Part shown: in pieces, positions 18,421 to 51,486 of the stretch
Layout of the letters: each line of letters opens with the position of its first letter
How positions within the stretch are numbered: position 1 is the first letter of the stretch
NCBI RefSeq assembly: GCF_003704095.1
Contig: NW_020845097.1
Coordinates: forward strand, 248,001-312,000
From: Pocillopora damicornis
Lineage: Eukaryota
Direction of reading: 5' to 3'
Length of the DNA: 64,000 nucleotides
Program-made: the position numbers and the translations under genes
Notes under the pieces: model-generated
The model's database searches: none
What the model saw: the letters and a program-made list of their open reading frames with translations, nothing else
Told to the model about the DNA's origin: nothing

Positions 18421-21400
18421 TTACCTCCTTGCACTGCGCAAATGTTGATGGATACGCAAAGCAACCTCTGGAAGCTGCACCTCTGGGCTCCTTAGGGTGT
18501 CCATAAGGTCAATAATTGTGAATTCCGGGTGTGTCGCTTTGATTGTTTCCAACAGTTGTCCAGTAGCAGGCTTTTCCATGGACTTTAAGTTTTCCCAGTA
18601 ATTAAGGTTATCCTGATTTACCCCCAGTACCTTGCCCACTTTTTTCCAGCCGTATTGTCCACTGCACGTCACTTCAAGTGTCTTTACGATTATGTCCTCA
18701 AGATCAGGCGATATGTCTGATAAACGAACACCTGCAATTTTTAAGAACATTTTGTCAAGTTAGTGACTAAATATTGCTCATTACGGACTGCGGCTGTGGG
18801 TTCTATAGATTTATGGAGAAGTTGTGGTTTTATAATCACTTTTGCTTTACAAGAAAAACTCGAATTATCACACTTGTTTTCATCGTGTAACAATTTGGTT
18901 TAGTTTATCATAGAATCATTATGAATAAAAGATTAGCACTCTGTTTTGAAATTATGATGACTAACTTTCAAGGTCAGAAGTAGTTGTGTATTCCTTTGAA
19001 AGTGTGCCTTCCAAATTGCCTCTGTTAAGGGTGACTCCTTGATAGAGACCTAAAAAAAAGTACAAAGACAATAAAGATATTTTAAGTAACTCAAACGTTT
19101 TACTTTCGCTTTCCTTGGACCCTCGCAATGGAACTTAACTAGTGCCATCTATTGTTTGCATTGAGCATGGGTATTTTTTGTGCATAATGTTATGCGTAAT
19201 TGGTGCCTACACGTATGGCTTTTCCTGTTAGACCAGAGCCGGCCATACGAACTTGTTGTGATTTGTGCTTGTCTGTGTAGTAGTTTTGGTCCTGGTTGAA
19301 TGAATGGCCTAATCTCGTTCAGTACAGATGAAAATAGTGATCACAGTCATTACTACGTAGAGATGAAGACATCATTCGCGCTTAACGTGTTGCTACTTTT
19401 GAATGAACATGAAGACCTTTTTTCTGATAAAAAACCGTTGAGTTCAACTAAAGTCTCACGAATGACCTCTGATTGTTGAAAATCATCAATCGCCGTAATT
19501 AACTATTGATATCTAACTACTACGTACCCTTTACGTGCTAATTGTACCCCCTCATGTTAGACACTGACTACTCCTCTTGTTTTGATTCTTCCATACATCT
19601 TTTCCTGGTAATATTCTCATAATTACTGAGGTAAAGTTAACCAAATGTTTCTAATACACCATGGGAAATTAGAGTATTCTGATCAAAGATATGAATGCCG
19701 GCGTTTCTTAAAGTTTACTTGTAGTAGTGTAATTTTTAACTATTCTTCTTTCGTTCCAATATCTAAGCCCCGTTGTATGTCGTTTTGTTTATCAAGTTTA
19801 CTTTCTTACCGGTTTGATATGTATTATCTCCCAAAAGCGACTTGTATTCTTCTGCACTTGTCGGATTTATCTTTATACAACAAATCACTTCACACCTACT
19901 TTGCCTTTTACAACAGAAGCATGCTATCATCACGCTCACTGAAATCAGCGCCAAAATAAGTATGGCTACAAGTACAGTTAGAGTTTTCACAAGTGTTGTG
20001 AAGTTTATTCCAAAGTAATTTGAAGCGGTTTGAAGTTTTGTCTCCGTAACATTCATTTCTTTGGAAGTGGTTCCAAAGCTCTCGTTTGAATGTTTGGCGT
20101 TAGCTACTGCAGTGCGCGAAATGCTTGGAAGCGAAGGGGTTTGTTCGGTAGCCATTTCATTTCCACTTCTTTCCAGGGCTTGTTGAACCTCTCGTGTAAC
20201 CCTCGTTCTTTTTAACATCTCCTGTACATTAAATGCCGATTTTGATGGGTTTTCTGAAGTGTTACTGCTACGGACATTTTGAATTGGCCCTGAGTTTGAG
20301 GGTGTCTTTCTCTTGGGAGTGTTAAGCCTCGGGGGATATAAAATCAACATTTGAGGATCGCTTCCCTTGGTTTTTATTTCTAGGGTGCAGTTTGTTCTTA
20401 AACATTGCCCTAGATTAATACACTCCAATGTAGCAAGGCGTTTCGTCCCGCAACACTTAAAACATTTTTTGCAAACATTTTCTGTCTTATTCCAAGGATA
20501 CGTTCCACGAGGGCAGGGTCCACATCGTGCATTTTTCCAAGCTAAACATGGACTGATGGTTTGTTTCGGACTACATTTCTGGCATGGGAGACAAATGCCT
20601 CGGCCTTGGCTATCCTTGTAGGCATTCGACGGGCATACTGTGCAAGCTATCACGGCGTTTTGCTGTATTTTGCTACCACATGGTGGAGTAAGTTGTCGCC
20701 CTGGGGGACAATCAGAGCAAGGTTGGCATCTGATTGTCGTATTCTGTTTACCAAGAATTTGGTATGATAACGCTGGGCATGTTCTATCTGGATAGCTGTT
20801 AGCTTGGGGAAGGTTCCAAAGAGTCCAAACCTGTTTAAGTGGATAGTAAGAGGTGAACATACGGCCAGACATTGCACTCTGTCCATTAGATATGACTCAC
20901 TTCTGAAATGGATGCAGTCGAACCTGTATTAAGCGGTCATTCACGGAGAATGGCGGGGTAATGGCGGAACCGCTTAATAAAGGGTTGACTGCCAAATACA
21001 GGTTCCACAGAATAGCATAGGGGTCCAACGCCATAAAAACCGCCATTTTGTAGTAATAGTCACAAGAGGAAAGATTATGTTTATTGCGCTGAGACATCTA
21101 CAATCAAAAGTGTCAAATTGATTTCGGGATATAAACATTGTACAAATTCGAATCGAGAGATTATTCTTAGTTTTATTTAAGTGGTTTTGGATTAAGTGAC
21201 CATTGGGTAAAAGTAAATGACAACGCAAACAGGCCATGGGGGACCACGACCACTTAATAGAGGCGGCGTCGACAAAATCGATCTGTGAAAGTGACTACAT
21301 GGAGTTTTGGGGCGGAAAACTTTCAAATGGGCCTGCCCTCCATTATGTCTCGCAGACTCTATTTTGGCTTGTTACATAGCATCTCTAATTTTTATTGAAT

Positions 21401-22984
21401 AGAATTTAATTTTTCATTCCCTCGATCCGTGATCCGATTCGTGAGGTTTTTGGGCCGAAAAAAATAAAAATTTCAGTTGGACCTGCGCTCAATTATGTCA
21501 CGCGACTTTATTTTGGCTTGTCACGCAAAATTTTAATTTTATTTAACATGATCCGATCCGTGATCCGATCCGTGATCCGATCCGTGATCCGATCCGTGAT
21601 CCGGTCCGATCCTGGTTCTGTTGGCGCCGCAATAGAAGTGAAAATGACGGTACTCACGGTGACAGCTTAATACGATCCCGCTTAATACAGGTTGAGCTGA
21701 ACATCCTCTCAACACCTTTATCTCAAATGACATCAACTCGGTCAAGTAAAAGCAGTTCGTGGCCCACAGCATATCCTTATACGTTGCTCAGTTTTTAAGA
21801 AGAGAAGGCAAACAGGATGCAGCGAATCGCCATTTCCGAGCGCAAATGACGAGCACGTGATTTTCCAAATGGTACTTTGCCCTTTCGCTTAATATGGACG
21901 GTCTCATGATTATCATGAGTGATTGTGATCCTTTCACCATTTCCATGTGACTGATGTCGAATCGCTTTCTGAATTGCTAGTTCGGAGAATTAACGATATT
22001 AAGAGTGTCTGTAACCAGACCACGAGATGCCGCCGAGAGGCGAAATAAAATGTATCTAAACGAAAGGTGTACTTGAAACATCAAACCTTAATCACAACAT
22101 CCTGCTTTAAAATAGCGTGAAACGGAAGGTATTTGAGTGCATGTAATTGTTTCCGTGACTTACTCGATGTATTTTGTCAATTTGTCTCAAGTTGTTCAAT
22201 TCATGAAGCGCGCAGATTGTGGAAAAAAGGTAAGTTATCACTTACAAAGCAAGTTATGAAGGCAATAGCGATAAACTTCCTGATAAGCTCCAGAATCTTT
22301 GTAGACCACCAAATAGATAGCTTTACCCTGTCAAATTTTATCGTGTAAATAGGATCTGCTTTTAACTGTATGCCTCTTGAATTTGTGGGAAGTATTGAAT
22401 CCTGCAATTAGAAAAGAACGACAGTGGTGCATTAAAGTTTAGCAACGTGACATCGACCGAGGAGTACAGCTGGCGAGGAACTTGAGTTCGAGGTGCTGAC
22501 ATTTTAGAGACATAAACGATCCAAGAAGTCTTTGATAAGTCATCGTCCACTATGCATGTATATGTAGGCGTAACCTACAAATTGTTATTATTGGTGGATT
22601 GACGATAGAACTGATAAACGTCAAGCAGCATTTAGCGTTACGTCCTTGATTGCACAGCCTAGAGTATCGTATATCTATGTTCATATGTTAATGTGCTTCC
22701 TTCTACAAATATTTAAAATACATGTCACCCTCTTTGGAATCACGAAACTTGATTTGAGCCAATATCAGCCCATTTTGTTCAGTCCTTAGATTCTTTTCAC
22801 TTAAATGTAACGGCACATATGTCTGTAGCAGCACGATTTCTAGGGCTTAAAGCTTGAATCAAATTAAAATTAGTATATGCAAGATGTAAATATAAAGCGC
22901 AGAGTTTAAATATGTTTTCAGAGTTATGTTACGCTCTTATTAGTAATCGCTAATGGAGACTGATACCTTATGATGTTTCCCCAT
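18421..22984 (-). CDS. TNFR-A: TNF receptor superfamily member, EDAR/TROY-type CRDs, TM, death domain (529 aa)
   Basis: Exons 22967-22984 (MGKHHK), 22246-22401, 19810-20830, 18966-19049, 18421-18731; 1590 nt in frame. CQPCSDCPPGRQLTPPCG...; TM LTVLVAILILALISVSVMIA; DD LEV...GWKKVGKVLGV...PATGQLL...TIIDLMDTL. Confidence 0.85.
20913..21695. mobile_element. DNA-transposon MITE (CAGTCGAACCTGTATTAAGCGG ends) interrupted by a nested element
   Basis: Left GAACCTGTATTAAGCGG, right CCGCTTAATACAGGTTGA; related copy at 38397-38856. Confidence 0.7.
21265..21628. mobile_element. Nested TIR element containing a 12-bp minisatellite (ATCCGATCCGTG)n at 21549-21612
   Basis: Ends GGCGTCGACAAAA / CTGTTGGCGCC; internal direct duplication and about 4.5 tandem 12-mers. 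Confidence 0.55.
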
Positions 22985-23085
22985 TTGACTGTTGTGAACT
23001 AAACGATTATTCAATGACTTGTTCGACGTAAAAACCAAATCTTCGTCAACCTATTTACCGAATGCCTCGCGTGATCGAAGCACAA

Positions 23086-23134: not shown

Positions 23135-23149
23135 TTTGGTATCATAGCA

Positions 23150-25172: not shown

Positions 25173-28100
25173 TTAGTTCCTCGGCACACGGTGCCGAATT
25201 ATCGTGTCGGCAACATTTCCAAGTTTTACTTTAGGTCTGTTGAGTACAGCAATAAGATCCGATATAGTCTTTCCTTGACTTCCCAATTTCTCAAGTAATC
25301 GTTTAGTTGGGCTTTCATCTTTAAGAGTTCCTAAGTGTTCATAGTATTTGAATTCTGTAGGAGGAATTCCAACCGCGTTTGCTACTATCTGCCAACCGAA
25401 TGTCCTGCTATGATGTACAGACTGTACGTCACCCTGTGGAACATCCAGACGCATCACCAGTTCATCCAGGAGGTCTGGGGGCATATCTGCTAGATTGAGA
25501 TCTAAGGTAGAATCGATTTCAATTCTTTAGTATTGTTTCTGTCATGTTTTGGTGTCTTGTTTCAAATATAGAGTTGGAGTGAATTTTTAAAATCTATGAT
25601 TTTTCAGAGATGATAATGTTCATGAAAAAACTTCACGCTTCTGATTGGCTGAAAGCGAGTGCAAATGTTGTAACACGAGTGCAAATTACAAATAGCGCGA
25701 GCTGTCAAAATTTTGTCTGTCTTGATTTATTGTGATGCTTTGTTCATGTAAATTACATGAAAGCCTGGTTCGCACCAATGAAAGAAAGACAAAACGACAA
25801 AAGCGTTATGAAAAGGCAAGGTCATTCCTTCGCTATCTTCTAGTGTGAAAAAGTAGAAATAACCACATCGGTACAACATAGTGATAGTATGTCAGGAATA
25901 TTGATATGAAGACATAATCAATTAATATCAACCTAACTAGCAACCTAGTCATAATGACATAATGAGAAAATTGATTTTTCCTCGGTGCCTTTGTGTCGTG
26001 TGTGTTGATCAGATACAACCGATCTTGGTTTCCTTACCCTGTGACACTGTAACAGTGCTTGCTTCGTTGAGGGTCTCATCGGTAGTTTCTCCTTCTGCAC
26101 TGTCCAAGGTGAAACCTAAGTAGTAATCATGAAAATATAATAATATATTTCGAGAGGAAAACTATTTAGAGAACTTACTTTGAACAAGCAGCTAAGAAAT
26201 AAAGCTCACTAGGAACGATATGACAACGGCGTGGCATAGTTGCAATTTTCTCAGTTTGACGTAGATCTCGATAGATAGTGGTATCGACTTAGTTGCTATT
26301 AATATATTCTTATGTTCTGACCCATTATTCTTCTTACCTGTACTTTGAGGTTCTGTGGAGTCTGATGACGTTCTTTTTAACTCCTTCGGGTCTTGTAGCA
26401 TCTTGCAGACACACTTTTTGTATAAGGTATACAAGAGAAGTCCCATAAGTACCAGAAAAACAGCGGCTAAAATTGTTCCGGCAAAGCTGCCGAGGGCCGA
26501 GTTCAGGAATTCATTTTGCGCAGCGTCATCGTGTGGTGTTACCTCTCCCAACTCTGTTACTTCTTTTAGTGGAGTCTCAGTTGTTTGAAAAGTGATGTAA
26601 TTTTTTCCAAGTGACGCTTGAGAAGAAACCTGCTCTTCCACTTCAATCGCAGGAATTTTGGTCCCGTTGAATCTCCTTTTCGGTGTTAAAAGATGGTTTG
26701 AATTTTTACTTTGGTCCGTTATTGGCTGCTCAACCTCCTCCTCCTTTATGTTTTTAATGGGAGGAATCCTAAGAAAATCTAATTCTTCTTCTAGTTCATC
26801 CCAGTAGGAATTTTTTCCCGTTTGGCTGTCCCTGTTGTTCAAAGACTGATCACTTTTTGATTCAACTTCGGCCTCCAAGTCTCGTTTTACTATAGTCAAT
26901 GAAACATTTTTGTCGTTGGAGTCCAATTGGTCAAATTGGCTCATATTTTTCATACGACTTTGCTTCAGTGACATAGTGGGTTCTTTCGTTAACGCTTCGT
27001 TGTTCATAGCATTCGTAGATCTTGCAATCTTTTTATTCAAATATTTCCTTGTTTTTGTCGACCGTGCGCAACTTTCTCTACATTTTTTCGATATCAAGCA
27101 TTCTATTTGAGCCGCATAACTTTTTGGACAACAACCAGAGCAAGGTTTGCATCCGTGTGTTTTTTCATCTTCGTAGTGTCTCTTTGGACAGTCTTGACAT
27201 TCTGTGTTTTTCTCTGTGGTGCAAGAGCTAATGATGTTTCTTGATTCACAATCACTGCATATCTTGCAGGACCTACTGTCGACTTTGTCTGAATATGTTC
27301 CTGGTTTGCAAGGTATGCATTCACCAGCAGGTTTTGTATCCAATGTAATACCACACGGTGCTGAAGGTTCCTTCCCAGGAGGGCATACAGGGCAAGCGAA
27401 ACATTTGATCCTTCCGCTTTCATCTTCATGAACAGTGTAAGTCTCTGGGGGACATTTAGTAAGACCGTCTGGGTAAAATTCACTGCTGTCTTGCAAATCC
27501 TCTAAAAAATTCCATAGCTGTACAATCAATAAGGAAAGAGAAAGTGTCACAATTGTTTTTGGAATATTCAGCTCTATTGCCTTATTTGTCGAACTATCAC
27601 TTATACAACATACAATAAGAATAATTGTTTGAATATAATTACTTGGAAGATCAACAAGGCTACTACATTTTAATTTACTTTCTTTAAGAAAAAGCAACAG
27701 ATCGTGCTTCGGCTAGTTAAAAAAAATTGTGCTTCGAGATAACTAGATAAATAGACAGTTTATTAAAATATTCAAATTACTAGCCTCCTAGGGCTGAATT
27801 GCATGAAATTTACTAAAAAGTTAAAGTTATGTACACATTTATAAAATAAACAATTTTATGTGCTATAAAACGATTATAGAAGAAACTACGTATAAAAGTT
27901 TTACCGATTGGACATGAATGTGTTCGTGTAACCATTAGAGTGCATTTTTGGCAACCTAAATTGCGATGGTTTTTAAAATTGTATCGATCTGGTAATGCTT
28001 TTGGGTAGTAACAGATGATGGAGTTTATGTGCAGTATTAGATACGACTGAGAGTCAAAGAGTTTATAACACCGTTCTTTCCGCCTGTCTCATTCAAACAT

Positions 28101-28519
28101 CTGATACAAAAGGCCAGGAGAAAATTCGAAAGCCAGGTAACAGTTGTTATTGCCGTACACGACGTGGTCAGAGCGAGATATGACTTCGTTCTCCATTAAT
28201 CAACAGAGCCTGTGCATCCCTCAGATCACGCAAGCTTTTAAATTAAGTGACAATATTCGTAGTATTCAATTAAGCATACGAATTCTATGCTGAAGCCCAT
28301 AACGTTAAGTAAGCAATCTGGTTTAAATTGAAATTAAAGCAAATACTATAAATGGCCTCATTTTTTAGGGAGATTAATTATTCTAATATTAGTTTCGTAA
28401 TAATTCATACTAGATGACTGACTTACCCACAACAAGAAGAGGAACCCCAAAATAAATAGCACTAGCATAAATGGCAATATTATTTGATAATAACTTCTAA
28501 TTCTGCCATATTTTGCCAT
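25173..28519 (-). CDS. TNFR-B: TNF receptor superfamily member with death domain (559 aa)
   Basis: Exons 28427-28519 (MAKYGR...LFLLW, signal), 26338-27517, 26038-26115, 25173-25501; 1680 nt in frame. CRDs CFACPVCPPGKEPSAPCG..CIPCKPGTYSD; TM FAGTILAAVFLVLMGLLLYTLY; DD LDV...GWQIVANAVGI...SPTKRLLEKL. Confidence 0.85.
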
Positions 28520-30784
28520 GATGGGATCATGTTGTCTTCTATCGACGGTGCTACGAAAGGGTCTTACCTGTATAACAATGATAAAATAGGAATAATATTC
28601 AATTTGCACTGCAAAGGCGCCGTGAGTAGAGCTAGAGGTTGGTTTAATAAGTGCATGTTTGCACAACAAGTAAATAAATGTAGCTCGTATGATTGATACA
28701 ATTTAAAAAACTATGAATACTGACAAAAATCAATTACAAAGAGTAGGTGTTGTCCTCTTTGATTATTTTGCAGAAATGTATTTTGCAAGTAAATTGAATT
28801 GTAAACCGGAAGCAATAATAAAAGTTGTATCAGTGATCATCTAATAAACCTTAAAAATTGCTTTTGCCTTGTGGAGGTAAGCTCAAACAAATGAATTTGT
28901 ATTTGCCTAATTAATCAATTCGAACAATGAAAGTTTTGATGGTAATTGAACAATTAATTCACATATTGAAAGCAGGCTTTATTTGTCATAGTCTGTAAGT
29001 CTGACAGACTTAGGAAACACTAACAGGAATTTTTGTGAACAAGTCAGTCAGAAATCTTGGTGACCTACATCTCGTGCATTGGTTATCTGGGAACCCTTGC
29101 TAGTGTCCACCTGAAACCTGACGCGCATTTAACGGAGATTCCGTTACTAGCGCGATAACTTAGCATAACTCGTAACAGATAGCAGCCATGTTGTTTATAA
29201 TTAAACTCTCGGAAGGTAAGAGTAATTTTTTTTCTTGGTCAAAGAACTCACTTTTCCTTTCTTCCCCCCAAGTGAAAATAGGCAAAAATTGACTGTGTAG
29301 CAAACTAGAATAATTATTTATCAACAAAGTATACGATGCATTAAATATTCGTTGTAAGGCTTAAAAATTTTCTACGCTATGTAAGCCTTCCGTTTGAGAT
29401 CGAGAATGTAGAGGCAATTGATGCAGGTCGTGAAAGGTCTCACACGACTCTACCATAGTAACGCCGCAACATCACTGAATTATTCTGTTGAAAGGAAAAA
29501 TGGTCCATATTATTCTGAAGAAAATTGGTCATTTTATGTCTTAATCTTTGAAATTGCACAACAAAATATCAATTTTCAACATCCACAATCATCAGCAACT
29601 GATATTGAACTCGTAAGACACGTATTGGTTTAGTTTACGATTACTCTTATCTCCACCGTTCTTGAAAACATAAGATCGGCCTTAAAAACAACGCAACTTT
29701 CAGAACGTGGAATTCAGAATTAACTACATCCTTACCGTCGAGGTCTTAAGAAGGAGAGAGTATGTTGCTTGGTCTGTTCGAGACTGAATTCCTGTTGAGC
29801 AGTTCTTCCTGTGAACGGTATACAGGAGTTATACGTCCAGAAGAGTCTCTCCTTCGATAGCCCTATCGTAGATAAATTTGAGTCTTAATTAGAAGATACC
29901 TTCCCGGAGTATATAAACGGATATAATGCTGTGTTGCTGGAAAATCCACAAGTAGATGTACTAACACTAATACCCGTCGTGATGAGCGTGACCTTGCTTG
30001 GTGAAGATTAATGCAAATTTGCGGCCGCTTTCTCGGAAATTGTACTGATTTGTCATTGGTCAACCAAGGGTGATTATATTAAGCTCTTGGATACTTTTCG
30101 TTTAAACTTCAAACCGGATCATTCTATCGTGAATAATACAGAAAGGACTTAATGACAGGAAACATTTATGTTTAAGGAGACATTCTTCTTTCCTTTCATA
30201 TACCGGAAGGACTTTATAATCCTAGTTAAATGTCAACTTGGCTGTCTTTCTGACGCATCCTAACAGGTCGGAATGCTTTATCCTTATTTTCATCGACAGT
30301 AGCCGGTGCACAAGGATTTTTTTCCATATTTTGGTATCTTTCGCTCTTCCTTTAAAGATTAATAAACGCAAATTAACCTCAACCCATCCTTGCATGGCAA
30401 GGAAGGTCGCGCTAATAAGATCGTGGTAATTTGTTTGGAGATTGGCGTTGTAATGTCTCTAATGGCCATCGGCTACGCTCAAGACCCCGAACATAATTGT
30501 TCTCGCTATGGACCTCTTGCCCTTTTAAAAGCGTTTATATTTTGTCTTTTCTTTTATGATAAAATACGCGCTTTATGCCAGGAAAATTGGTTGATGCAAA
30601 TTGTAAAAACTAGGCTTTCACAGAACATTTAAATGAACTTTAAATAGGAGGAACACGCTTCATGATCCTTCTTTGTTTGGAGAGAAATCGAACTGATAGC
30701 CTTTGTTTTCAGGCGGAAAATTATCTCTGATTTTTTTCCTCGGAAAAACAACGAATTTGAAAACAGGATTCTAAAAGAATTTCT

Positions 30785-30787
<3 letters not shown>

Positions 30788-30815
<28 letters not shown>

Positions 30816-31400
30816 ATGAGTAAAAGGAGAGACTCCCATACGCCTTTTCATTTACCTTACGGTTGCAAACATCGGCGAAGTGACACTCGTGAAGAGTACA
30901 GCCTCTAACTCGATTGAAATTTCTGCAAATATTTTTATCATCAGGACTGTAATCTGCGAAAGCTGTAGCCCCTGGGAGGCTTTGCCTAATGAAGGCCTGG
31001 TTGTAATTACCATCGGCTCTGAGGAAAATGTGTGCAGACGGTGGGTGCCAAAACTCCACGCGTAATCATAGATGGCTTGAATGTGATGAAATTCATCAGC
31101 AACCCTGATGGCCGGCTACGTTTAACACTAAGTTCCATAATTTTGAAGGTTTAGGCGAGATAGTACTACATATTCTGAAGGGATGGTCGCTTCGCACAAG
31201 AGGGCAACTGGTGGAAAATCCAACAGTTCCCTATAACCCGCTGGGCCAAGAACTGATTTTAGGTCTAGAGGAAATCGAAGGTTTCTCACCCTCTACAGTT
31301 TGGGTCGGATTTAAATACATCTTCAACTCTTGAGCAGCTTCAGGTCCCACCAGAGGCCCGTCCAGATTATTTGAAAACGTGCTCGGCTCAGCTGGATGGC
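30788..31400 (-). mobile_element. Degenerate retroelement fragments (DIRS-gag-like CCCH finger; Penelope terminal motif at 30788-30815)
   Basis: CRNFNRVRGCTLHECHFADVC; minus strand ACGAAGGGCTAACGCTTGAAACGTCAGC. Confidence 0.45.
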
Positions 31401-37100: not shown

Positions 37101-37570
37101 GGGAGTATCGAAGCCTGAATTGAGAGAAGAAAGACAGCATTAAAAACCCAACGTTGTAAAATCAATTGATTTTCAGTCTAAACGGATGAGTAGCGTGGGA
37201 AGTGAATATGCCGAAATTTATAGTGTGACTTCCTAATGTTTACCTAGCGTTAAATCGTTGAGGTATACTAATTGAAGTTCTCGTCGCTTTACCCTCCTTA
37301 AGCCCTTATATGAATTTTCACATCTTATGAATCAACAGCTTGTTACAAGCCCCTATGAATAAATTACTTTCACGTTTTATATAATTCAATGTTGAAACGA
37401 GTAACGTGTAGTAACTGTGGAAATTTGTCTTTAAGCTTAAAAGAATATCGAAAGCCTCTCTAAGCTTGCTGTTGTAAATCAGAATATCAAGCAGTACAGG
37501 TGACAAATATCATTGAACAGCGATACTGTTCTTTAGTTATAAGGCATAGTACCTTACGATGTCTTCTCAT
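34152..37570 (-). CDS. TNFR-C: paralog of TNFR-A with death domain; in-frame TAG at 36239-36241 (pseudogene, or rescued by an alternative acceptor, 523 aa)
   Basis: Exons 37553-37570 (MRRHRK), 36965-37114, 35218-36253 (or 36238), 34586-34669, 34152-34450; otherwise open and collinear with TNFR-A. Confidence 0.75.
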
Positions 37571-39912: not shown

Positions 39913-42802
39913 TTATGCATGCTGGGAATTACTGACTGCTTGAATGAATTGAATGACGCGAGACGCGACATCGGGGCGGTTTACTTTATGACTCTTCAAT
40001 ACATTGATGAGGTCGGATATTGTCGCACATTTAGAAGTTCCAAGTTTCAATAACAGCTTGCTGGTTGGACTTCCGTTTTCTCTTTTGTATTCAATCTTTA
40101 GGTGACGGAGTTCATCTCTGCAGATCTCAAACGCAGCACCCACTTTTTGCCAACCATAGCGATGTTCACCTTTGCGTCGCACGTCCAGTTTCTCTACCAG
40201 TAAGACTTCAAGATCTGGAGGTAGCTCGGACAAAATGAGACCTGAAAAATTGAAGAATTTTGTCATAGTTGAAACTCGGATTTCCTCGGCAACCTGAAAT
40301 CGTTTGAAGTCAACAGCAAGAGGCATTAAATCTGGCTAATATTTGGTAAATGGCCCAGATATGTATTCTTGTGAATTTCAACGAATGACGTACTGTACTG
40401 ATTCGATACAACGCTTCGTTCCAATAAGCGCTGTCTCTCTATGAGGGGCTCCATCGAATTTGCTCTTTTTTAAAAAAGCCCGAATACCAATGAGCGGCCT
40501 CATTCCAATTAGCACTCCTATTCGGATAAGTGTCCCTATTCTGTTTCAGTAATATCACTGTTCGAGTACCATTACATTACATAAAGGGGCTCATTTTCCT
40601 CTAATGTCCTCATTGCAAAGACAGTGGTCTTCCTCACAGTCTCTCTATTATGCTCACGTGAGTGCACAGTTCCTTCAAGCAAATGACCTCGTCTTCATAT
40701 TTTGCAGCGATTATTATTATTTTGCTTGGCTGGTCGATCTGCCTAGGAAGAATCAGGAGCAAGTCCATTTTCCAGTCTTCCTGATCCTTTTGGGTAGACA
40801 TCAAAGCTTTGTTTCGCGCATACTGCTGTATTTCAAAAAAGAAATAAGCGCCCTGTCTCTAACAAGCGCCCTGTTCTGAATAGGGGCCCTCCCTTAAGGT
40901 ACCATAAGTCAATAAGCGCCCAGGCGCTAAATCAAATCAATACGGTAGTAATGGGGTATATTTATAACGCAGATGCAGCCTCTCACCTTTAAGATCATCA
41001 GGAGAGGTAGACAGGTCGGTTGAATTCTTTACGTTTAAATGATCAGCATCGTCAGAGGAGTACGACATTTCTATGAAAACAGATGAACAAGGTAAACGAG
41101 TTAGATGAAATAATACGCAAAGTTGACGCTCTATGTGAAAAGATATTTAAATGATTTCGGGTGCAATTTAGAACCAATAAGCACGATTATTTATTAATGT
41201 ACACAGATTGATTTTGTGACCGAAGAAAGATGTGTATAAAACGAAAAAGGACACAAGATTTATGGGTATTTTTTTTAAGCAAACACGATGCGGAATTAAG
41301 TTCCTAAAAAATAATTACAATACACATAATGATTTTTCGCCCACCTTCAATTGACTCTGCGCTCTTTAATCTCTGATAGTCTCGGCAATCCTTATTCCAA
41401 ATAATGTGTCTGATACTATTCAGAAGCCACACCACAAATCCAAGCAATACGGAAATTATGACAAGCACAACAACCACCACAACTTCGACCGACGGAAAAC
41501 CACCCAGCACATAAGTAATGTTTATAATCTGAGATCCCCAGGTGGCGTTAGATGTTTTTCCATGCAACCCTTCTATGTATGGTGTTGTGAAATGTTTTGG
41601 CCTTTTCGATTGCTGTATCAACGGTCGTCGTGGTCTACTTAATAGTAATGACTGGTTGTCATATTTCTTCTCCCAACGCTTAACCGTATACGGAAGGGAA
41701 TGTGCTCTAGATGGAACCGTCGTCGTGCGTGGTATATCCGGTGTAGACCTTTTATGTGAAAAAAAATGCTCATCCAGTTTTGATGAGTTTGAGTTATCAA
41801 GCCTCTCCGTCTTATAGATATCGTTCACCTCCAAAGGAGACCAGGTGAAAACTTTTCCATTTCGGATGCTGAGATGGTTGGTTCCTTTGCCATTTGAAAG
41901 GTATGTAAGTTTAATCCCCTCCGTAGGCAAATGAGTTTTCCTTGGTATCCTCTCAGTGGCGTGAATTGAAATTGGCACACACATCACAATGGTATCGAGA
42001 GTCACTGTTCTGCCACATGGCGGAGTAAGCTTCATGCCTGTACCACAGGGATGACAGGGCTGACATTTAATGATAGTACTGTCATTGCCGATCAACTTGT
42101 AATTTCCTGGTAAACAGGTGTTATTAGTTCCTGCGATATGGTCTAGCCGCCACCACCACCATTGCAACAATACCTGGCTCTGTAAACGGATGGATGAACA
42201 AACAATTATAGTATTTTCCATTCGACTGACTATCACAAGTGTTCGCATTTGGCTCCTAAAGTGTTTTACAATACAGGTTACACTGAAGATGAAACCAACG
42301 GCGAAATTACAGGTAGTTCAGGCATCTGAGCAATGATCATTTGCATGCTAAATGTTTGTATCTAAGTGTAAATAAAGACGTGGATAACCTGTTCCAACCA
42401 AGTTTAACCTCAATACCTCAATAAGACTATCAGGGTAAAGGAACGATGTCTTATCCAGCAATGACCCCCCTTCCCCTTCCTTAAGTCAGGAGGAGTACTT
42501 ATCAAATGAATCAGTTCTTAGAATGATGTCATGTGTAAGAGTAACTATAGGTGCATTTTGGGTAATCAACATCATCGAATTGCGCATGACCCCAAACTGT
42601 GGAAACAACCGAAAAAAAATGGCCCCAATGGCCCCAATGCCGCTACAAAAAAAATGCAATAACAAGCACTTCCACTGAACACTCCACAATTAGATTTTAG
42701 AAGTATTTATTAAATATTTATAGTTGTGGGAGACTGACTTACCAATATCAGCACTACCACGGCAAACAAGAGAAGCACAGCTTTCCATCCTGGAATCGCC
42801 AT
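39913..42802 (-). CDS. TNFR-D: single-CRD TNF receptor-like protein with long stalk, TM and death domain (433 aa)
   Basis: Exons 42743-42802 (MAIPGWKAVLLLFAVVVLIL), 41345-42173, 40987-41070, 39913-40241; 1302 nt in frame. One CRD CLPG...CQPCHPCGTGMKLTPPCG...C; DD LDV...GWQKVGAAFEI...SPTSKLL. Confidence 0.8.
40391..40947. mobile_element. TA-flanked DNA-transposon MITE with AATAAGCGCC subterminal repeats in a TNFR-D intron
   Basis: TACTGTACTGATT...AATCAATACGGTA ends; multiple AATAAGCGC units. Confidence 0.6.
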
Positions 42803-43105: not shown

Positions 43106-46100
43106 CTTTCCCGATGGCTGCGAAATCATTACAGGGTTACTCGCATATGCCCAAACAAGATGATGATATTCACGAAAAAACTTGAAAATTGCACCTTGTG
43201 TTGTGTGATCGCTTTCGCTCAAAAAGGTTTTTCGCACAAAAACGATAGGGGACGCTGTAGACGAATACTCACAACTCCGTTGAGCCGAATCACAGACACG
43301 ACATTCATGTCTATGTTTGCATTTTATCAGATTGAGTGTGTCATGTAGGAAACCATTATATATTTTAACCTTAAAATGATTATCATACCCGTGTGCTTCT
43401 TGCGTGACCATTTCAATCGCTACTCTCAAGGACACGCAAATGTCAGCTCATGATAAATTAATGACCCTTCACTACCGTTCACTTGAACCCCATGCCGACA
43501 GACAATTGTTTACAATGACATTGTAAACAGCGAATATTTTAGCGCTTTATTTTTGGAAACGAAAAGTAGAGGCACGAGGAAAACATAGCGATTTTGTACA
43601 GATATGGATAGTGCAAAAGCCCCAAAACGTTTCCGTTTTAGATTATAATCAAAAGTAAGAAGTTTCGAGTCGAAGATTAATTACATCAGTGGTCAATCAA
43701 ATTACGACACGCGAACGAAAAGTAAGCTCACATGCTTATGCGTACAAACTTAAGAGCTAAGGAATACTGCAGTAAAAAAAAGTCACGAATTCGACTATCC
43801 GCCCTTATTTGGCAGGTCGTTTAGCTTTGTTTTGCCTTAAGTAGTTTCCTAGAAGGAAAGAACTTAAAACTTAAAAAAATCAAACTGCGCCGTTTCCATG
43901 TGAAGGCAGTCTTGCAATCATGTAGACAAATCGATTACCGGCTAGGGCTCGTTTGAATTTACAATTGAGTCGACGAATATGCAAAGTAAAAGTACCTTTC
44001 TTTGGCTAAGTCAGATGTTTGTGTTGAGTATACCAATCGCAAGACGGGATCTGTGCAGAACAAATCCGATGTTGCAGATAAAATAATTTAGTTGGGATCG
44101 CTGATTTGTTTCCTTGACAGATTATTACACCAATACTTGAATGCCAACACATTCCACAAGTTTAAGACGCTTCTTTTAGCAGCCTGTTTCGGAACCCACT
44201 CACGTAGCAAAATGACTAGTAGAGTTTGATATTTTGCAGAAAGGTCAGAAGCAGCGAGTGTTAGGAGACTGTTCAGGACATCTTNNNNNNNNNNNNNNNN
44301 NNNNNNNNNNNNNNNNNNNNNNNNNNNNNNNNNNNNNNNNNNNNNNNNNNNNNNNNNNNNNNNNNNNNNNNNNNNNNNNNNNNNACAAAAAAGATATCAC
44401 CATGTGACTTAAATATTCAACCACTAATGCAAAGAATGATAATTTTTCAGCCCACATTGCAAGGGTGTATAAAAGCAGTTTCATCTGGAAAGTTCTACAA
44501 AAAAGTAAGCCGTGTTTCGGAATCTTCAATCTGCGTATGCACACTTATCCAAATATTCTGAAGTAATATCCGAAGTACATTACCTGTGTGTTTCATTTCG
44601 CGAACTGAGGGAAAAAGTTGCGTGACTTAGATGAAATCAAAAGAAATGATGGCATTTACTTTTAATTTCAAAACAGTGTAAGCCATTTTAAAATGAAAGT
44701 GACAGAAGCTGTTATGAGAGCTACCTTAAGACTGAGTTGTTTACCGTTTTGGTGGATTTCCGCTCCTCGATCGATTTTACGTCTGAAATTTCGTTCCTTG
44801 GATTGATATGAGGTAGGTTCAGATGTTCCCTAAAGAGCCACGTTATTCGGGTGTATATGCTTCCACTTTTTCCAACCATTTTATTATCATACAGCCAGCG
44901 AAGTGTCAGCGGTAAAGTGGAGATTTATTACAGTGAATCAGAGGCCTTTATCATTCTTGCCAAATACGTCATCAAAGACGGTATGGTCAAGGGGATTCCC
45001 CGTTTGAGAAGTATTGCTCGTCAATAGGCCTCTATTTGGCATTGTTTCTGTTCTGGTTGTGTATTTGCAAGATGTCCTGAACAGTCTTCTAACACTCGCT
45101 GCTTCTGACGTTTCTGGAAAATATCAAACTCTACTAGTCATTTTGTTACGTGAATGGGTTCGGAAACAAGCTGCTAAAAGAAGCGTCTTCAATTGGCTTG
45201 ACTTGTCAAGGAAACAAATCAGCGATCCCAACTAAATCGTTTTATCCGCAACATCGGATTTGTTTTGCACAGATCCCGTCTTGCGATTGGTATACTCAAC
45301 ACAAACATCTGACTCAGCCAAAGAAAGGTACTTTTACTTTGCATATTCGTCGACTCAATTGTAAATTTAAACGAGCCCTAGCCGGTAATCGATTTGTCTA
45401 CATGATTGCAAGACTGCCTTCACATGGAAACGGCGCAGTTTGATTTTTTTAAGTTTTCAGTTCTTTCTTCTAGGAAGCTGCTTAAGGCAAAACAAAGCTG
45501 AACAACCTACCAAATAAGGGCGGATAGTCGAATTCGTGACTTTTTTTCTTGCAGTATTCCTTAGCTCTTAAGTTTGTACGCATAAGTATGTGAGCTTACT
45601 TTTCGTTCGCGTGTCGTAATTTGATTGGCCACTAAAAACGATGTAATTAATCTTCGACTCGAAACATCTAACTTTTGATCATAATCTAAAAAGGAAACGT
45701 TTTTGGGCTTTTGCACTATCCATATCTGTACAAAATCGCCATGTTTTCCTCGTGCCTCTACTTTTGGTTTCCAAAAATAAAGCGCTAAAATATTCGCTGT
45801 TTACAACCTCATTGTAAACAATTGTCTGTCGGCATGGGGTTCAAGTGAACGGTAGTGAAGGGTCATTAATTTATCATGAGCTGACATTTGCGTGTCCTTG
45901 AGAGTAGCGATTAAAATGGTCACGCAAGAAGCACACGGGTATGACAATCATTTTAAGGTTAAAATATATAATGTTTTCCTACATGACACACTCAATCTGA
46001 TAAAATGCAAACATAGACATGAATGTCGTGTCTGTGATTCGGCTCAACGGATCTGTGAGTATTCGTCTACAGTGTCCCCTATCGTTTTTGTGCGAAAAAT

Positions 46101-46221
46101 CTTTTTGAGCGAAAGCGATCACACAACACAAGGTGCAATTTTCAATTTTTTTTGTGAATATCATCATCTTGTTTGGGCATATGCGAGTAACCCTGTAATG
46201 ATTTTGCAGCCATTGGGAAAG
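43106..46221. repeat. Inverted duplication, arms of about 1.15 kb (43106-44284 and 45069-46221), with a spacer containing an N gap
   Basis: Arms are near-identical reverse complements; the same spurious ORF appears at 43028-43435(-) and 45892-46233(+). Confidence 0.9.
44991..45001. promoter_or_regulatory. Palindromic NF-kB-type site GGGGATTCCCC
   Basis: Exact match to the p50-type kB consensus, in the spacer of the inverted repeat within the TNFR cluster. Confidence 0.45.
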
Positions 46222-46248
46222 GGTGTATATTGATTCAAATGCTTACAG

Positions 46249-46560
46249 GTTTGAAATTGACCAACATATCCCAAGATGTCGAAGACATACTTGTGAAAAC
46301 ACTTGATGTACCCCTAATAGGGAAAACTGAATGCAGCTTTGAAAAGTAGGAAAGGCATTGGAGATTGATGACCTTAATCTTCAATACTTGAAGAACAACA
46401 AAGAAGGGAGTCCAACTTGGCAACTGTTGGAAATACTCAAAGCAAAATATCCACATTTCACTGTTGCTGATCTACTACACCCATTAAAGAACTAAAAGGA
46501 TATAAATATCTTCAGACATTGTTTTTATACACTTCAGTATTTAAACACAGTATGAAAGTA
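46249..46560 (+). pseudogene. Frameshifted TNFR death-domain exon (copy 1), opposite strand to the cluster
   Basis: TTACAG|GT LKLTNISQDVEDILVKTLDV..., a 1-nt deletion giving TAG, then VGKALEIDD...SPTWQLLEILKAKYPHFTVADLL in a shifted frame. Confidence 0.8.
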
Positions 46561-47482
46561 AACATACTGACCCAAAAATGCTACTCCAGAGAGTACCTTG
46601 GCAATTTAACTGTTTCACATGCAGGTTTGAGTAGTACTTTGTGTATACATGATTCTTGCCATGTCGTTTCCTGTGCCATCCTTTATTAGCATTATTTGAA
46701 CAGAGGTAAAAATAATTAAGTAGAGCTAACTTATTACCCATGAGATATTATAAAACACCTGTTTTATAAAATTTCTGATTAAGCAGGCAAAGAATTTGTT
46801 GATTTGAGATAGGGGAAGGATTTGGATGGGGGGGGGCATGTGGGGTGCCATGCTTAATTAAAATTTGCTGAGGGTTAAAAGTGTTTAATTCATCATTTCC
46901 CTTTTGAAGAGTTGGCCAAATTGAACAACAACAAAATGAGGTATGCACTTCTTTGTTGAAGAGCCTCTGACATTTACTCCTGAAACTGGAAGAGGAGTAA
47001 TGTTTTTCTCAACTTTAACCAAGATCAAAAAGTTGCAATAGTCCAGCCTATCATTAGACTATTTAGGCTGAATGTAAGGAGGGAGGAGGGAAACATATAG
47101 TGGAGGGCTTTAAACTCTCCCACCACCTGGGGTGGTGGGAGAGCTTATTCCTTGAACTTTGACTAGTTCAGGATTTTCCATTTACACCTAGCTGATCCCT
47201 GAATATGCCATGTAATGAAGACATGAATATAACAATGCTGTGATAGGCTGAATTTTCATCTGAAAGAGTTGCATGTTTTTTTTCAAAGAGGCCTTAAATT
47301 AGCAAAGACATAAATATCTCCAAAAATGTAAATATAGTCATTTTAAGGTGTGCAGTATTAAAATGTGTTTGTTTTATTAAACNNNNNNNNNNNNNNNNNN
47401 NNNNNNNNNNNNNNNNNNNNNNNNNNNNNNNNNNNNNNNNNNNNNNNNNNNNNNNNNNNNNNNNNNNNNNNNNNNNNNNNNN

Positions 47483-47789
47483 ATTGACCAACATATCCCA
47501 AGATGTCGAAGACATACTTGTGAAAACACTTGATGTGCCCCTAATGGGGAAAACTGAATGCGGCTTTCAAAAAGTGGGAAAGGCATTGGAGATTGATGNN
47601 NNNNNNNNNNNNNNNNNNNNNNNNNNNNNNNNNNNNNNNNNNNNNNNNNNNNNNNNNNNNNNNNNNNNNNNNNNNNNNNNNNNNNNNNNNNNNNNNNNNN
47701 NNNNNNNACCCATTAAAGAACTAAAGGACATAAATATCTTCAGACATTGTTCTTATACACTTCAGCATTTAAACACAGTACAAAACTAA
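47483..47789 (+). pseudogene. TNFR death-domain exon (copy 2, gapped); direct duplicate of 46257-47382 extending to 48588
   Basis: LTNISQDVEDILVKTLDVPLMGKTECGFQKVGKALEID, then an N gap; downstream sequence duplicates copy 1. Confidence 0.65.
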
Positions 47790-48811
47790 ACATACTGACC
47801 CAAAAAATGCTACTCCAGAGAGTACCTTGACAAGTTAACTTTTACACTTGCAGGTTGAGTAGTACTTTGTGTATACATGATTCTTGCCATGTCATTTATT
47901 ATCAGCAGAAATTGACTGTGCCATCCTTCATTAGCATTATTTGAATAGATGTAAATAATTAAGTAGAGCTAACTTATTAGCCATGAGATATTATAAAACA
48001 CCTGTTTTATAAAATCTCTGATTAAGCAGGCAAGGAATTTGTTGATTTGAGATAGGGGAAGGATTTGGAGGGAAGGCATGTGAGGTGGCATGCTTAATTG
48101 AAATTTGCTGAGGGTTAAAAGTGTTTAATTTATCATTTCCCTTTTGAAGAGTTGACCAAATTGAACAACAACAAAATGAGGTATGCACTTCTTTGTTAAA
48201 GAGCCTGTGNNNNNNNNNNNNNNNNNNNNNNNNNNNNNNNNNNNNNNNNNNNNNNNNNNNNNNNNNNNNNNNNNNNNNNNNNNNNNNNNNNNNNNNNNNN
48301 NNNNNNNNNNNNNNNATTGGAGAGCTTTAAATCTGGGGTGGTGGGAGAGCTTATTCATTGAACTTTGACTAGTTCATGGTTTTCTATTTACACTTAGCTG
48401 ATCCCTGAATGTGCCATGTAATGAAGACATGAATATAACAATGCTGTAGTGATAGGCTGAATTTTCATCTGAANNNNNNNNNNGTTTTTTTTCAAAGAGG
48501 CCTTAAATTTAGCGAAGATGTAAATATCTCCAAAAATGTAAATATAGCCATTTTAAGGTGTGTAGTATTAAAATGTGTTTGTTTTATTNNNNNNNNNNTT
48601 GAGAAAATAATATAAAAATGATACTAACATGTGATAAAATGTTTAACATTTTACAGGAAATGTTAATGGACAATTGTAAATTTGGGTGTTTTAGGANNNN
48701 NNNNNNNNNNNNNNNNNNNNNNNNNNNNNNNNNNNNNNNNNNNNNNNNNNNNNNNNNNNNNNNNNNNNNNNNNNNNNNNNNNNNNNNNNNNNNNNNTATT
48801 GCATAACTTGC

Positions 48812-50398
48812 CTTTTTTAGGTGTTGTGTCACATGTAACAGGCTCAAATCCTTCATAATTGCGATTTATGTATTGTGCACAACAGGTCATCGTAATACCA
48901 GTTTTCTGAGGTTTACAGCATATTATTATGAACAAACCAACGGAAGTAAGTGCAATAATTCCAAGTATCACTGCAAGTGAAATTAACACAGCTATCAAGT
49001 GTTTAATGGTTTCATTAAGGTAGCTTACAGCCATCAGCAACGTTGGCTCTACAGCATTCCCACTGGGAAGAGTTCCAAATCCCTTCTGTGGTCCAGTGGT
49101 GGTGTTGTGGGTACTGCTTGAGATGATTTGAGTTGAATGTATTTCTTCCTTGGCCACATTTGAAGTAGATTCTACATTTTCTCTTTGTATGGCCTGCAGC
49201 ACCTCTGTTGTAACTCTTGTTCTCGTTAACTTGGATACTATGACCTGTAAACCCTGTTTTTTTAGTTGGTCTGAGTTGTTACCTGAAGAAAGGTCATGGA
49301 GTGGCATTGGCACAGGAGGTGTCACTCTTTTAGGCATTCGCACACTTTGAGAATTTGAAGCATCTACTTGTTGAGGGTTGCGTTCCCCACTTTCCATTTC
49401 TTTGGTGCAGTTTTTTCTCAAGCATCGCCTCAGATAAAAGCATTCCACCTCAGCAAAGCGTTTTATTGCACAGCAAGTTGAGCATTTTTTACAAGAGTCA
49501 ACTGTGTAGCCCCATTGGTAGGTTCCACGAGGACAGCCTCCGCAGTGTGCATTTGTCTCTGATGTACATGGGCTAGTGGTCTCTCTCGGGTGACATGTCC
49601 TGCAGGCTTTACATGCTGCACTACCATGTCTCTCTTTAAAACTTTGGGATGGACATGTCGTACAGGTTATTGAGGCAGCATTTTGCTGTAATTTACTGCC
49701 ACATGGTGGAGTTAGTTGGTGACCTGGGGCACAGTCTGGGCAAAGCTGACATCCGATTGTCGTATTTTGGTGACCAAGAATAGTGTATGATGAAGTTGGA
49801 CATGTTCCATCAGGATTGTTATTAGCTTGGGGCAATTCCGGTAGAATAAACAACTGTGCGAGAAGAAAATGAGATGTTAAAGCACTTGCATAGCCTGTAT
49901 ACAGCCATCCCCTTCCCCAAATTTTAACTTTGGGGAGGGGGTCTGGCTGTACATTGGCTACTACTGAAATATTAAGGGAGTTCATTTGTTATCTGCAATC
50001 TACCCTGCACTCCCCTCGTAACTTATCCCAAAAATGGCTGCAATCTAAATTCGTTAATTTATCCGTGCATTTTGAAAAATCAGTGAAAATTTCAGGCCCA
50101 AATCTCTTAGAACTGCCTTAGAATCGCCATGTGAATCGTTATTCTCCCCTATAGTCACACTTGGATCACCTAGTACATACAAATATTTGTCCACTAAGAC
50201 CTTTCGGCCCAAAACCCCTGTTTACACGCTCGCGTACTCGCTAGAAGCACGTGATTATTAGATTCAAACAACAAAGTTAAAACCCAGGTATAAATATGGG
50301 TGTTTTTGGGCACCAAACCATACAGATAGCGAAATCAGAAGTCGCTAGAAAGTCACTAAATCAAACTTAAATAATGTCAAGAAAATGGCGATTTAAAT

Positions 50399-50455
<57 letters not shown>

Positions 50456-51486
50456 CTAACTGCAGACAGTACTGTTTCAGCCTTCTGGGCCTCATCAGTG
50501 CAGTGCTGATGCTAGGATGGAGGTAAGGCTATATAGCCACCCCAAGTGATCTCACACATGTGGTATCATCTAAGCCATGCCAGAGTGCTCAAACTAGAAA
50601 ACCTAGTGAGCATGCATAATATATATATATATAGGATAAAAATTTCAGTGATGGCGTGACACCAAAAACTACGCATGTGATAATAGGAATACAATTAAAA
50701 CTTTCAAGTTCTGCGCTTAATGTTCTTGGAAATTGTAACTCATCACTTACATTGCAATTGATTAGAGTGAGGAAGATGGCTGAGATGATTAGCAGAATTA
50801 TTTTCTGGATCCTAGTCGGCCAGAGACTAGATAGTGTCTTTCTAATCACATTTGCAGGATCTCCTTTGAGGTCTATCTTTCTTGAACATAAAGGGAGTAC
50901 CGAAGCCTGTAATCAGAAAAGAACGAAATTGCTTAAAAAATTCGGAAATATGCAATTTACTTTATCTTAACTACCTATACCTTTTCTAAACGGGTAAACT
51001 GCGAAGTAACTGTGATCCGTATTTGATCCTCTATTTCGAGCTGTTAATCTTTAGGAAAAAATTTTATCCCCTTGTTTTTCGAGAAATCTTCCATGTATGT
51101 AAGTAATACAAGGTATAATGTCGTATCAATATTATTATTAGTGAATGACTGACAAAACACGTAAACTCGAACTGTAATTTCATTGATCATGATGTTCCTA
51201 TGTTTGCACAGCATTGAGAATAGTATACAAATTCTTATCCTCGATGTTCGTTCAAGTCTTAAAATAGTATTATTTCATCCTGTCATTTAAAAGTTGATTT
51301 GAGCCCTTTCCAGTTATTTTTCAAACGGGCGTTTTAGATAACCTAAATGGTTAGTCATCGGCAATAGGTACCTAAAATCGAGATACATCGTAGAGTCGTC
51401 GATAAACAGTATAAGTGACGTCCAAATCTTCTAGTTTAGCCACCTAAGCTTTCATCGTAGATTAATACCTTATGATGTCTTCCCAT
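48812..51486 (-). CDS. TNFR-E: paralog of TNFR-A/C, 5' part only (ectodomain and TM); downstream exons missing, in gaps or inverted
   Basis: Exons 51469-51486 (MGRHHK), 50751-50906, 48812-49853, ending AAG|GCAAGT. CRDs CQLCPDCAPGHQLTPPCG; TM LIAVLISLAVILGIIALTSVGLFIII. Confidence 0.78.
50401..50454. repeat. (TA)n microsatellite
   Basis: About 27 TA units. Confidence 0.95.
50459..50504 (-). ncRNA. Type I hammerhead ribozyme (minimal, Penelope/retrozyme-like) in a roughly 170-bp insert flanked by TA repeats
   Basis: Minus strand ACUGCA-CUGAUGA-GGCC(CAGAA)GGCU-GAA-ACAG(UA)CUGU-C^UGCAGU: stems I, II, III, the complete catalytic core and a GUC cleavage triplet. Confidence 0.82.

What the first reader, a model, noticed from the sequence alone, without database searches (positions are those of the whole stretch)
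18421..51486. Five-gene TNFR array with graded architectures: a possible receptor/decoy rheostat
Seen: five co-oriented genes share the exon plan [signal][CRD-stalk-TM][78-84-nt linker][DD], which is complete in A-D. They comprise two intact receptors (A, B), one conditional (C), one single-CRD form (D) and one lacking an intact linked DD in this assembly (E). Established: corals have expanded TNFR repertoires, and vertebrate TRAIL receptors pair death receptors with decoys. Inference: an independently evolved death-receptor/decoy cluster that tunes apoptosis or stress signalling.
Basis: partly seen in the sequence, partly recalled or inferred. Interest (0 to 1): 0.7.

Follow-up and report, generated by a model that had tools for sequence, protein, structure and literature searches.

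The report
Coral death-receptor array with clipped copy
Five neighbouring coral genes are spliced TNF-type cell-death receptors; four keep a complete signalling tail, and the fifth has lost the last helix of its death domain, so it likely dampens its neighbours' signal, much as a human TRAIL decoy receptor does, though this is untested.

Summary
The five-gene TNFR array is real, with exact bounds, and RNA contigs confirm splicing. The 'graded rheostat' is only partly right. A and B are intact. C is not splice-conditional: relatives have Trp where this window has TAG, and RNA uses the upstream acceptor. C does segregate several broken alleles, one leaving only signal plus three CRDs. D is an old single-CRD receptor with a complete death domain (conserved in Stylophora), the opposite of a decoy. 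E's 'missing' death domain is an assembly artefact: it lies in a mis-oriented, gappy block, and relatives make a 515-residue receptor. But E's domain ends before helix 6 in 13 of 13 listed relatives that carry it, while its CRDs stay conserved. Helix 6 and the loop before it form the type IIb assembly surface, so E is a plausible TRAIL-R4-like dampener or INCA-like cap (about 45%); drift is the main rival. Mixed TNFR arrays are common in this genome, and the scan noted another decoy candidate elsewhere in it. No ligand, adaptor or function was tested.

The parts
18421..22984 (-). Gene A: intact 3-CRD death receptor, 529 aa. Exons 22984-22967, 22401-22246, 20830-19810, 19049-18966, 18731-18421
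   Evidence: Open model; all four introns joined in RNA contigs, the first in 1 of 4 runs and the others in 4 of 4
25173..29861 (-). Gene B: intact 3-CRD death receptor, 559 aa. Coding exons 28519-28427, 27517-26338, 26115-26038, 25501-25173; extra 5' non-coding exon near 29731-29861
   Evidence: RNA joints; P0120 is 100% identical over its length
34152..37570 (-). Gene C: 3-CRD death receptor, 528 aa in relatives. Exons 37570-37553, 37114-36965, 36253-35218, 34669-34586, 34450-34152
   Evidence: RNA joints; 528-aa relatives P0049/50/52/55; six-helix model
36239..36241 (-). Stop codon in C of this sequence, where relatives have Trp; it also creates a possible in-frame acceptor at 36238 (use not shown)
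35764..35767 (-). Site of a segregating frameshift allele of C (not in this window) that ends the protein 14 residues after CRD3
   Evidence: 1-nt deletion in 3 of 4 runs, two DNA and one RNA; 6 proteins end there
39913..42802 (-). Gene D: single-CRD receptor with a complete death domain, 435 aa. Exons 42802-42743, 42179-41345, 41070-40987, 40241-39913
   Evidence: spliced in 2 of 2 RNA runs; Stylophora orthologue P0113, CRD 74% and DD 80% identical
48812..51486 (-). Gene E, 5' part: exons 51486-51469, 50906-50751, 49853-48812 (GC donor); 3 CRDs, stalk, TM. The 84-nt linker exon falls in unassembled DNA
   Evidence: RNA cover of 49029-49853; spliced relatives P0009, P0023; linker not found elsewhere in G000
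47483..47789 (+). E death-domain exon, gappy copy; open in the sequenced part, stop after helix 5, decayed helix-6 remnant behind it
46249..46555 (+). Second copy of the E death-domain exon, with a 1-nt frameshift near 46341 and the same stop after helix 5
   Evidence: three other runs lack the frameshift
43106..48696 (.). Mis-ordered, N-rich block: 43106-44284 matches 45069-46221 inverted (93%); 46256-47378 matches 47483-48588 (90-95%). Inferred tandem duplication of about 3 kb holding E's last exon
   Evidence: two alternative last exons in P. verrucosa models P0023/P0024

Best explanation
This is an old tandem array of spliced TNFR-family death receptors in a Pocillopora coral, in which A, B and D (and intact alleles of C) carry complete death domains, and E, whose death domain stops before helix 6, likely acts as a dampener of its close paralogues A and C. 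Shown: the gene structures, splicing, E's truncation and its conserved three-CRD ectodomain. Inferred: (1) E binds the same TNF-type ligand as A/C or joins their oligomers; (2) its stop lies in the last exon, so the protein is made; (3) losing the H5-H6 loop and helix 6 removes the type IIb surface, so E would enter a death-domain assembly but not extend it, or would occupy ligand without signalling. The rest of the variety (single-CRD D, broken C alleles, duplicated last exon) reflects ordinary gene birth and death, not a designed five-step dial.
For: E's domain ends at the same place in 13 of 13 listed cluster members that carry it (15 of 80 listed; the other 2 are models without the exon), including P. 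verrucosa RefSeq. Both window copies share the stop, and the DNA behind it is a frameshifted helix-6 remnant. AlphaFold2 gives six helices for C and five for E; E aligns to MyD88 19-95 against 20-115 for C, and to FADD 93-167 against 93-186. Of 25 other family domains I aligned, 24 carry helix 6 and one fragment ends within it; E alone has Phe at a Trp kept in 25 of 26 rows. 11 of 11 death domains in 19 fetched stretches of other arrays are complete. E's CRDs remain constrained: branch dN 0.13, dS 0.54; they are 52-78% identical to C's. Type IIb = H5-H6 loop plus H6, and INCA caps filaments through defective b surfaces (PMC11874512, PMC8403095, passages). Last-exon truncations of the EDAR death domain escape decay and act dominant-negatively (PMC12584329, passages). 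TRAIL-R4 precedent (PMC9500463, passages).
Against: No ligand, adaptor, cell type or assay. Helices 1-5 of E show dN/dS of about 0.30, like A and C (75 codons, wide intervals, computed on the frameshifted copy with one codon masked). This fits retained signalling or a recent stop as well as capping. The five-helix model is confident (pLDDT 91), and caspase-1 CARD polymerises with little or no H6 (PMC11874512). The truncation was seen only in E-like proteins at over 90% identity, the named ones from Pocillopora; no Stylophora E orthologue was found (limited search), so age and selection are unknown. C carries several broken alleles, showing that decay is under way in this array. A five-helix domain may simply misfold.
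Confidence: 0.45

Rival explanations
1. Plain birth and death: E and C are redundant copies that are decaying; E's stop drifted to high frequency and E regulates nothing.
For: 9 of 41 C-assigned proteins end prematurely, at four different sites, and the window adds a fifth lesion (sampling is uneven). E's domain has 2-3 times the amino-acid change of A or C (dN 0.29 against 0.10 and 0.14). Other arrays in this genome hold partial copies. Tandem birth-and-death of immune receptors is pervasive in corals (PMC10236652, passages).
Against: E's frame up to the stop is open in nearly all listed relatives (2 of 32 flagged: one ends abruptly, one changes only the last residues). It is spliced in RNA contigs of 2 of 2 RNA runs, and its CRDs are constrained while the sequence behind the stop has already decayed.
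Confidence: 0.3
2. E still signals: the five-helix domain folds and recruits an adaptor through its remaining surfaces, giving a changed rather than a lost output.
For: dN/dS about 0.30 on helices 1-5; confident five-helix model; caspase-1 CARD has little H6; TRAIL-R4 itself can activate NF-kB (PMC9500463).
Against: Helix 6 is kept in 24 of 25 other aligned family members and in 11 of 11 domains in other arrays; E also lost the near-invariant Trp.
Confidence: 0.15
3. One reading: all five share a ligand and their differing architectures are tuned grades of one apoptotic switch.
For: All five are co-oriented and spliced; B-type and D-type domains lie four locus tags apart in Desmophyllum, so the cluster is old.
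Against: C's grade is allelic. D keeps its death domain. B, D and A/C/E domains fall in three separate lineages (quick tree), and B and D CRD1 are only 28-37% identical to C. Mixed arrays occur elsewhere in the genome.
Confidence: 0.07

Closest known systems
Coral death-domain TNFRs, EDAR-like group (PMC4979521, main text read)
   Same: CRDs, one C-terminal TM, death domain; expanded family; best solved-sequence match of C is EDAR (7x9g, E 0.003); 7 of 13 Acropora DD-TNFRs group with EDAR in that paper
   Different: Orthology to the Acropora proteins not tested; long stalk with a positioned dibasic motif; one member with a clipped domain
TRAIL-R4/DcR2 (TNFRSF10D)
   Same: Intact ectodomain and TM with a truncated death domain, beside intact paralogues (the human genes' clustering is recalled)
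   Different: Independent origin; E keeps five of six helices (DcR2 keeps much less, recalled); ligand sharing and inhibition are shown for DcR2, not for E
INCA (CARD-only cap of caspase-1 filaments)
   Same: Death-fold protein with a defective type IIb side
   Different: Soluble CARD, point defects in Ib and IIb; E is a membrane receptor missing helix 6; capping is only proposed here
Dominant-negative EDAR death-domain truncations (PMC12584329)
   Same: Last-exon stop that clips the death domain of an EDAR-like receptor
   Different: Disease alleles in one gene, not a maintained paralogue
Single-CRD TNFRs (Grindelwald type; 10.1101/2024.07.27.603686)
   Same: D has one CRD and may still bind ligand
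   Different: D has CxxCxxC rather than the CXXCXXXC signature given for grnd-type receptors; its CRD resembles CRD1 of its neighbours

Membership tests
TNFR superfamily | One or more six-cysteine CRDs outside the cell | tested here: met
   TNFR_c6 hits in 5 of 5 (E 2e-12 to 2e-3; only B above cut-off); conserved Cys spacing; EDAR, HVEM and DR5 are the top solved matches
TNFR superfamily | Single-pass membrane protein with cleaved signal peptide | tested here: inconclusive
   Two hydrophobic segments in each. The first is followed by aromatic residues in homologues; no signal-peptide predictor was available
TNFR superfamily | Binds a TNF-family ligand | not tested
   No complex prediction or assay was run
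Death receptors (A-D) | Complete six-helix cytoplasmic death domain | tested here: met
   C model has six helices, Z 12.5 (rmsd 2.4, 91 aligned) to MyD88 DD; A, B and D align over the full length
Death receptors (E) | Complete six-helix cytoplasmic death domain | tested here: not met
   Five helices; ends before H6
Death receptors (A-D) | Recruit FADD/TRADD and trigger caspase-8 | not testable with these tools
   Sequence profile is nearest IRAK3 DD (E 2e-5), then IRAK4 and FADD; fold matches to MyD88, Pelle, ankyrin and FADD are about tied
Decoy receptor, TRAIL-R4 type (E) | Intact ligand-binding ectodomain with truncated death domain | tested here: met
   All 20 ectodomain Cys kept, CRDs constrained; truncation
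Decoy receptor, TRAIL-R4 type (E) | Shares ligand with, and inhibits, a signalling receptor | not testable with these tools
   Needs binding and co-expression assays
Decoy receptor (D) | Lacks a functional death domain | tested here: not met
   Full domain, 80% identical to the Stylophora orthologue
EDAR orthologues | Orthology with EDAR and use of EDARADD | tested here: inconclusive
   Only a weak best match; one preprint places the EDAR lineage after the cnidarian split (10.1101/2021.12.26.474206), another paper groups coral TNFRs with EDAR

The most novel reading that the evidence does not exclude
Pocillopora evolved its own membrane-bound cap for death-domain signalling: receptor E keeps ligand binding and five helices but deletes the type IIb face, so it joins and terminates A/C signalling assemblies. 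It has also lost a convertase-like site that is kept in the family's stalk, while frameshift alleles of C supply a soluble three-CRD decoy that varies among colonies, giving heritable tuning of TNF signalling.
Probability: 0.15. Interest if true: 0.75.

Novelty: new variant of a known kind. Interest (0 to 1): 0.42.

Why it matters
Coral TNFRs respond to heat stress, but none has an assigned regulatory role in the papers I could search. E is a natural helix-6 deletion sitting next to near-matched intact controls (A, C), so it makes a simple test of whether decoy or capping control of death receptors arose independently in cnidarians. C's broken alleles are markers that can be scored across colonies. 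The locus also warns that draft models here invent missing domains and fused receptors.

Tried and rejected
(1) E lacks a death domain: rejected. (2) C is switched by splicing: not supported; no RNA from a TAG-bearing individual was seen, so rescue through acceptor 36238 is open. (3) D is a decaying copy: rejected; 0 of 47 D-assigned proteins end prematurely and the architecture is shared with Stylophora. (4) The 1.18-kb inverted repeat as a transposon: disfavoured; the junction at 46221/46226 and the run-on of E's 3' UTR into 44385-44565 fit a mis-ordered tandem duplication. Whether the duplicate is fixed, polymorphic or partly allelic is unresolved. (5) Loss of a juxtamembrane Tyr in E: dropped; E has another Tyr three residues away and B lacks it too. 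(6) Ranking expression: not possible from contigs. (7) Metagenome scan for E loci: 0 of 304 candidates confirmed. (8) Search with P0009 found 2 proteins among 1956 candidates, no E orthologue from another genus; weak evidence of absence. (9) Foldseek gave no match at E 0.001 or better. (10) The careful tree did not finish; only the quick tree is quoted. (11) No complex prediction was run: the ligand among about nine paralogues is unknown and TNF-TNFR pairs tend to pass by likeness. (12) Literature: nine searches; in the listings and passages I saw, none describes this locus or a cnidarian decoy TNFR; one search returned 2 papers. PMC9897584, PMC3726526 and PMC10806146 (passages) added nothing used. 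Subscription papers, and the table and supplements of 10.1101/2024.07.27.603686, were not seen and may cover these receptors.
Full report
1. What is there. Six-frame reading shows five large minus-strand exons, each with cysteine repeats, a Ser/Thr-rich stalk and a hydrophobic segment, and four terminal exons with death-domain matches. Models built by coordinate give A 529 aa, B 559 aa, C 528 aa (523 with the downstream acceptor), D 435 aa and a 405-aa 5' part of E, with matching intron phases and 78-84-nt linker exons. RNA contigs from public runs join every modelled intron of A, B and C and D. Contigs show presence only, not level. The nearest named proteins are Pocillopora damicornis and P. 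verrucosa gene models, labelled uncharacterised or hypothetical.

2. Gene C. This sequence has TAG five codons into the CRD exon. All 26 related proteins matched at that site have Trp; this count is biased, because a stop allele would not be called across the site. RNA uses acceptor 36253, upstream of the site, in 3 of 4 runs, and relatives are 528 aa. So C is normally intact, and the window holds an allele or an error. C is nonetheless unstable. A 1-nt deletion at 35767 occurs in 3 of 4 runs from three studies and matches 6 proteins that end 14 residues after CRD3; three more proteins break at other stalk sites. In all, 9 of 41 C-assigned proteins end early, against 0 of 47 for D, 2 of 32 for E, 1 of 14 for A and 1 of 6 for B (the B case is intron read-through) (listed cluster members only, uneven sampling). 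The short allele would give a secreted ectodomain if its RNA escapes decay (inference).

3. Gene D. One six-cysteine CRD, stalk, TM and a full death domain. A DNA contig matches 39042-42879 with no difference. The Stylophora orthologue has the same plan, with CRD 74%, stalk 71% and death domain 80% identity. D is therefore an old receptor that can plausibly signal, not a decoy. Single-CRD TNFRs that bind ligand are common in invertebrates (10.1101/2024.07.27.603686; abstract, section 9 and passages).

4. Gene E. Its death-domain exon lies on the + strand at 46249 (frameshifted) and 47483 (gappy). DNA contigs of both DNA runs join the end of E's TM exon to 46226 on opposite strands, and RNA contigs carry 84 bases before the exon that the window lacks. 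Spliced relatives and P. verrucosa RefSeq give a 515-aa receptor. The block 43106-48696 is best read as a mis-ordered tandem duplication of E's last exon (inference). The real anomaly is that the domain stops after helix 5 in 13 of 13 listed members that carry it. The DNA behind the stop aligns with helix 6 of A and C but is frameshifted. Predicted structures have six helices for C and five for E, and E's alignments to solved domains stop 18-20 residues short. In my alignment of 26 family domains, chosen from the hits, only E lacks helix 6 entirely, and only E has Phe for the conserved Trp. Two further E-like proteins also end there or in a short altered tail (output partly cut).

5. Age and context. 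In the quick tree, A, C and E domains group together (SH-aLRT 92), while B and D each group with domains from other corals (97 and 90). Desmophyllum has B-type and D-type domains four locus tags apart. The genome holds at least 29 CRD matches, 12 of them on one other contig. The 19 stretches fetched from three other arrays contain full, partial and apparently domain-less copies, and 11 of 11 death domains there are complete. Mixed arrays are thus the norm; a clipped domain is not. Tandem birth-and-death of immune receptors is described for corals (PMC10236652, passages, with no mention of TNF), as is the TNFR expansion (PMC4979521, main text). The scan's note e1-9561231 reports another decoy candidate elsewhere in this genome (not checked, not used as support).

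6. Mechanism. Shown: structure, splicing, truncation, and constraint on E's CRDs (branch dN 0.13, dS 0.54). From the literature: the type IIb surface is the H5-H6 loop plus H6, and INCA caps filaments through defective b surfaces; last-exon truncations of EDAR's domain act dominant-negatively; TRAIL-R4 inhibits by ligand capture or by joining death-receptor complexes. Inferred: E shares ligand or oligomers with A/C and weakens their output (0.45). Against: helices 1-5 of E are about as constrained as those of A and C (dN/dS about 0.3, noisy), caspase-1 CARD works with little H6, and nothing shows a shared ligand or shared cells. Rivals are drift (0.30), altered signalling (0.15) and the five-step dial (0.07). 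The output pathway is open: the domain's profile is nearest IRAK3 (E 2e-5), and fold matches to MyD88, Pelle, ankyrin and FADD are about tied, so NF-kB signalling is as likely as apoptosis.

7. A side feature. A Lys/Arg-Arg pair lies 48-72 residues after the CRDs in 16 of 20 family stalks (shuffle mean 3.0, maximum 10 of 20 in 2000 shuffles; median stalk identity 21%; 7 of 27 rows left out as D-type or lacking CRDs). The window was chosen after seeing the data, and slid windows reach 10-11. The fuller [RK]-x-[KR]-R motif (convertase consensus, recalled) is in 12 of 27 family stalks against 0 of 17 shorter stalks from other arrays. E lacks the pair in 23 of 24 members. Cleavage is a prediction.

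8. Verdict. Observation partly confirmed; interpretation partly supported. A known kind of array with one new variant, a receptor whose death domain lacks helix 6. Interest 0.42.

Noticed in passing
window 35764-35767 and other sites in gene C: Several independent truncating alleles of C segregate; the commonest would leave signal plus three CRDs, a possible soluble decoy or a null.
   Followed up: partly
stalks of A (about residue 264), B (242), C (259): Positioned dibasic, convertase-like motif conserved across the family and absent from E.
   Followed up: partly
first coding exons of A-E: The N-terminal hydrophobic segment follows a 40-residue leader in A, C and E and ends in an aromatic, often Trp-rich, belt; it may be an uncleaved anchor, which would make these two-pass receptors.
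   Followed up: no
database models of this locus: Stylophora P0011 fuses a C-like and a B-like gene, and one protein cluster mixes A and B members. The 'in-frame paralog' receptor A0A3M6TZR3 highlighted in 10.1101/2024.07.27.603686 has an accession close to those of D and E models and may be such a fused model; its sequence was not seen.
   Followed up: no
window 48811-48810: E's TM exon uses a GC donor, consistent with the spliced relatives.
   Followed up: yes
window 246-5911 (+): Gene with repeated Cys/Trp-rich exons lacking a Pfam match, followed by six EGF-like exons.
   Followed up: no
window 53989-54912 (+) and 59082-60017 (-): Tail-to-tail pair of intronless rhodopsin-family GPCRs, 76% identical in DNA.
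   Followed up: no
window 30593-31239: Between B and C, very high RNA contig depth in 4 of 4 runs with loose ends at 30784; probably a repeat or retroelement fragment.
   Followed up: no
G000 C4113 (L001-L011), C2200 (L012-L017), C521 (L018-L019): Three more TNFR arrays with full, partial and six-CRD forms.
   Followed up: partly
window 21549-21608: Five copies of a 12-base tandem repeat in the second intron of A.
   Followed up: no
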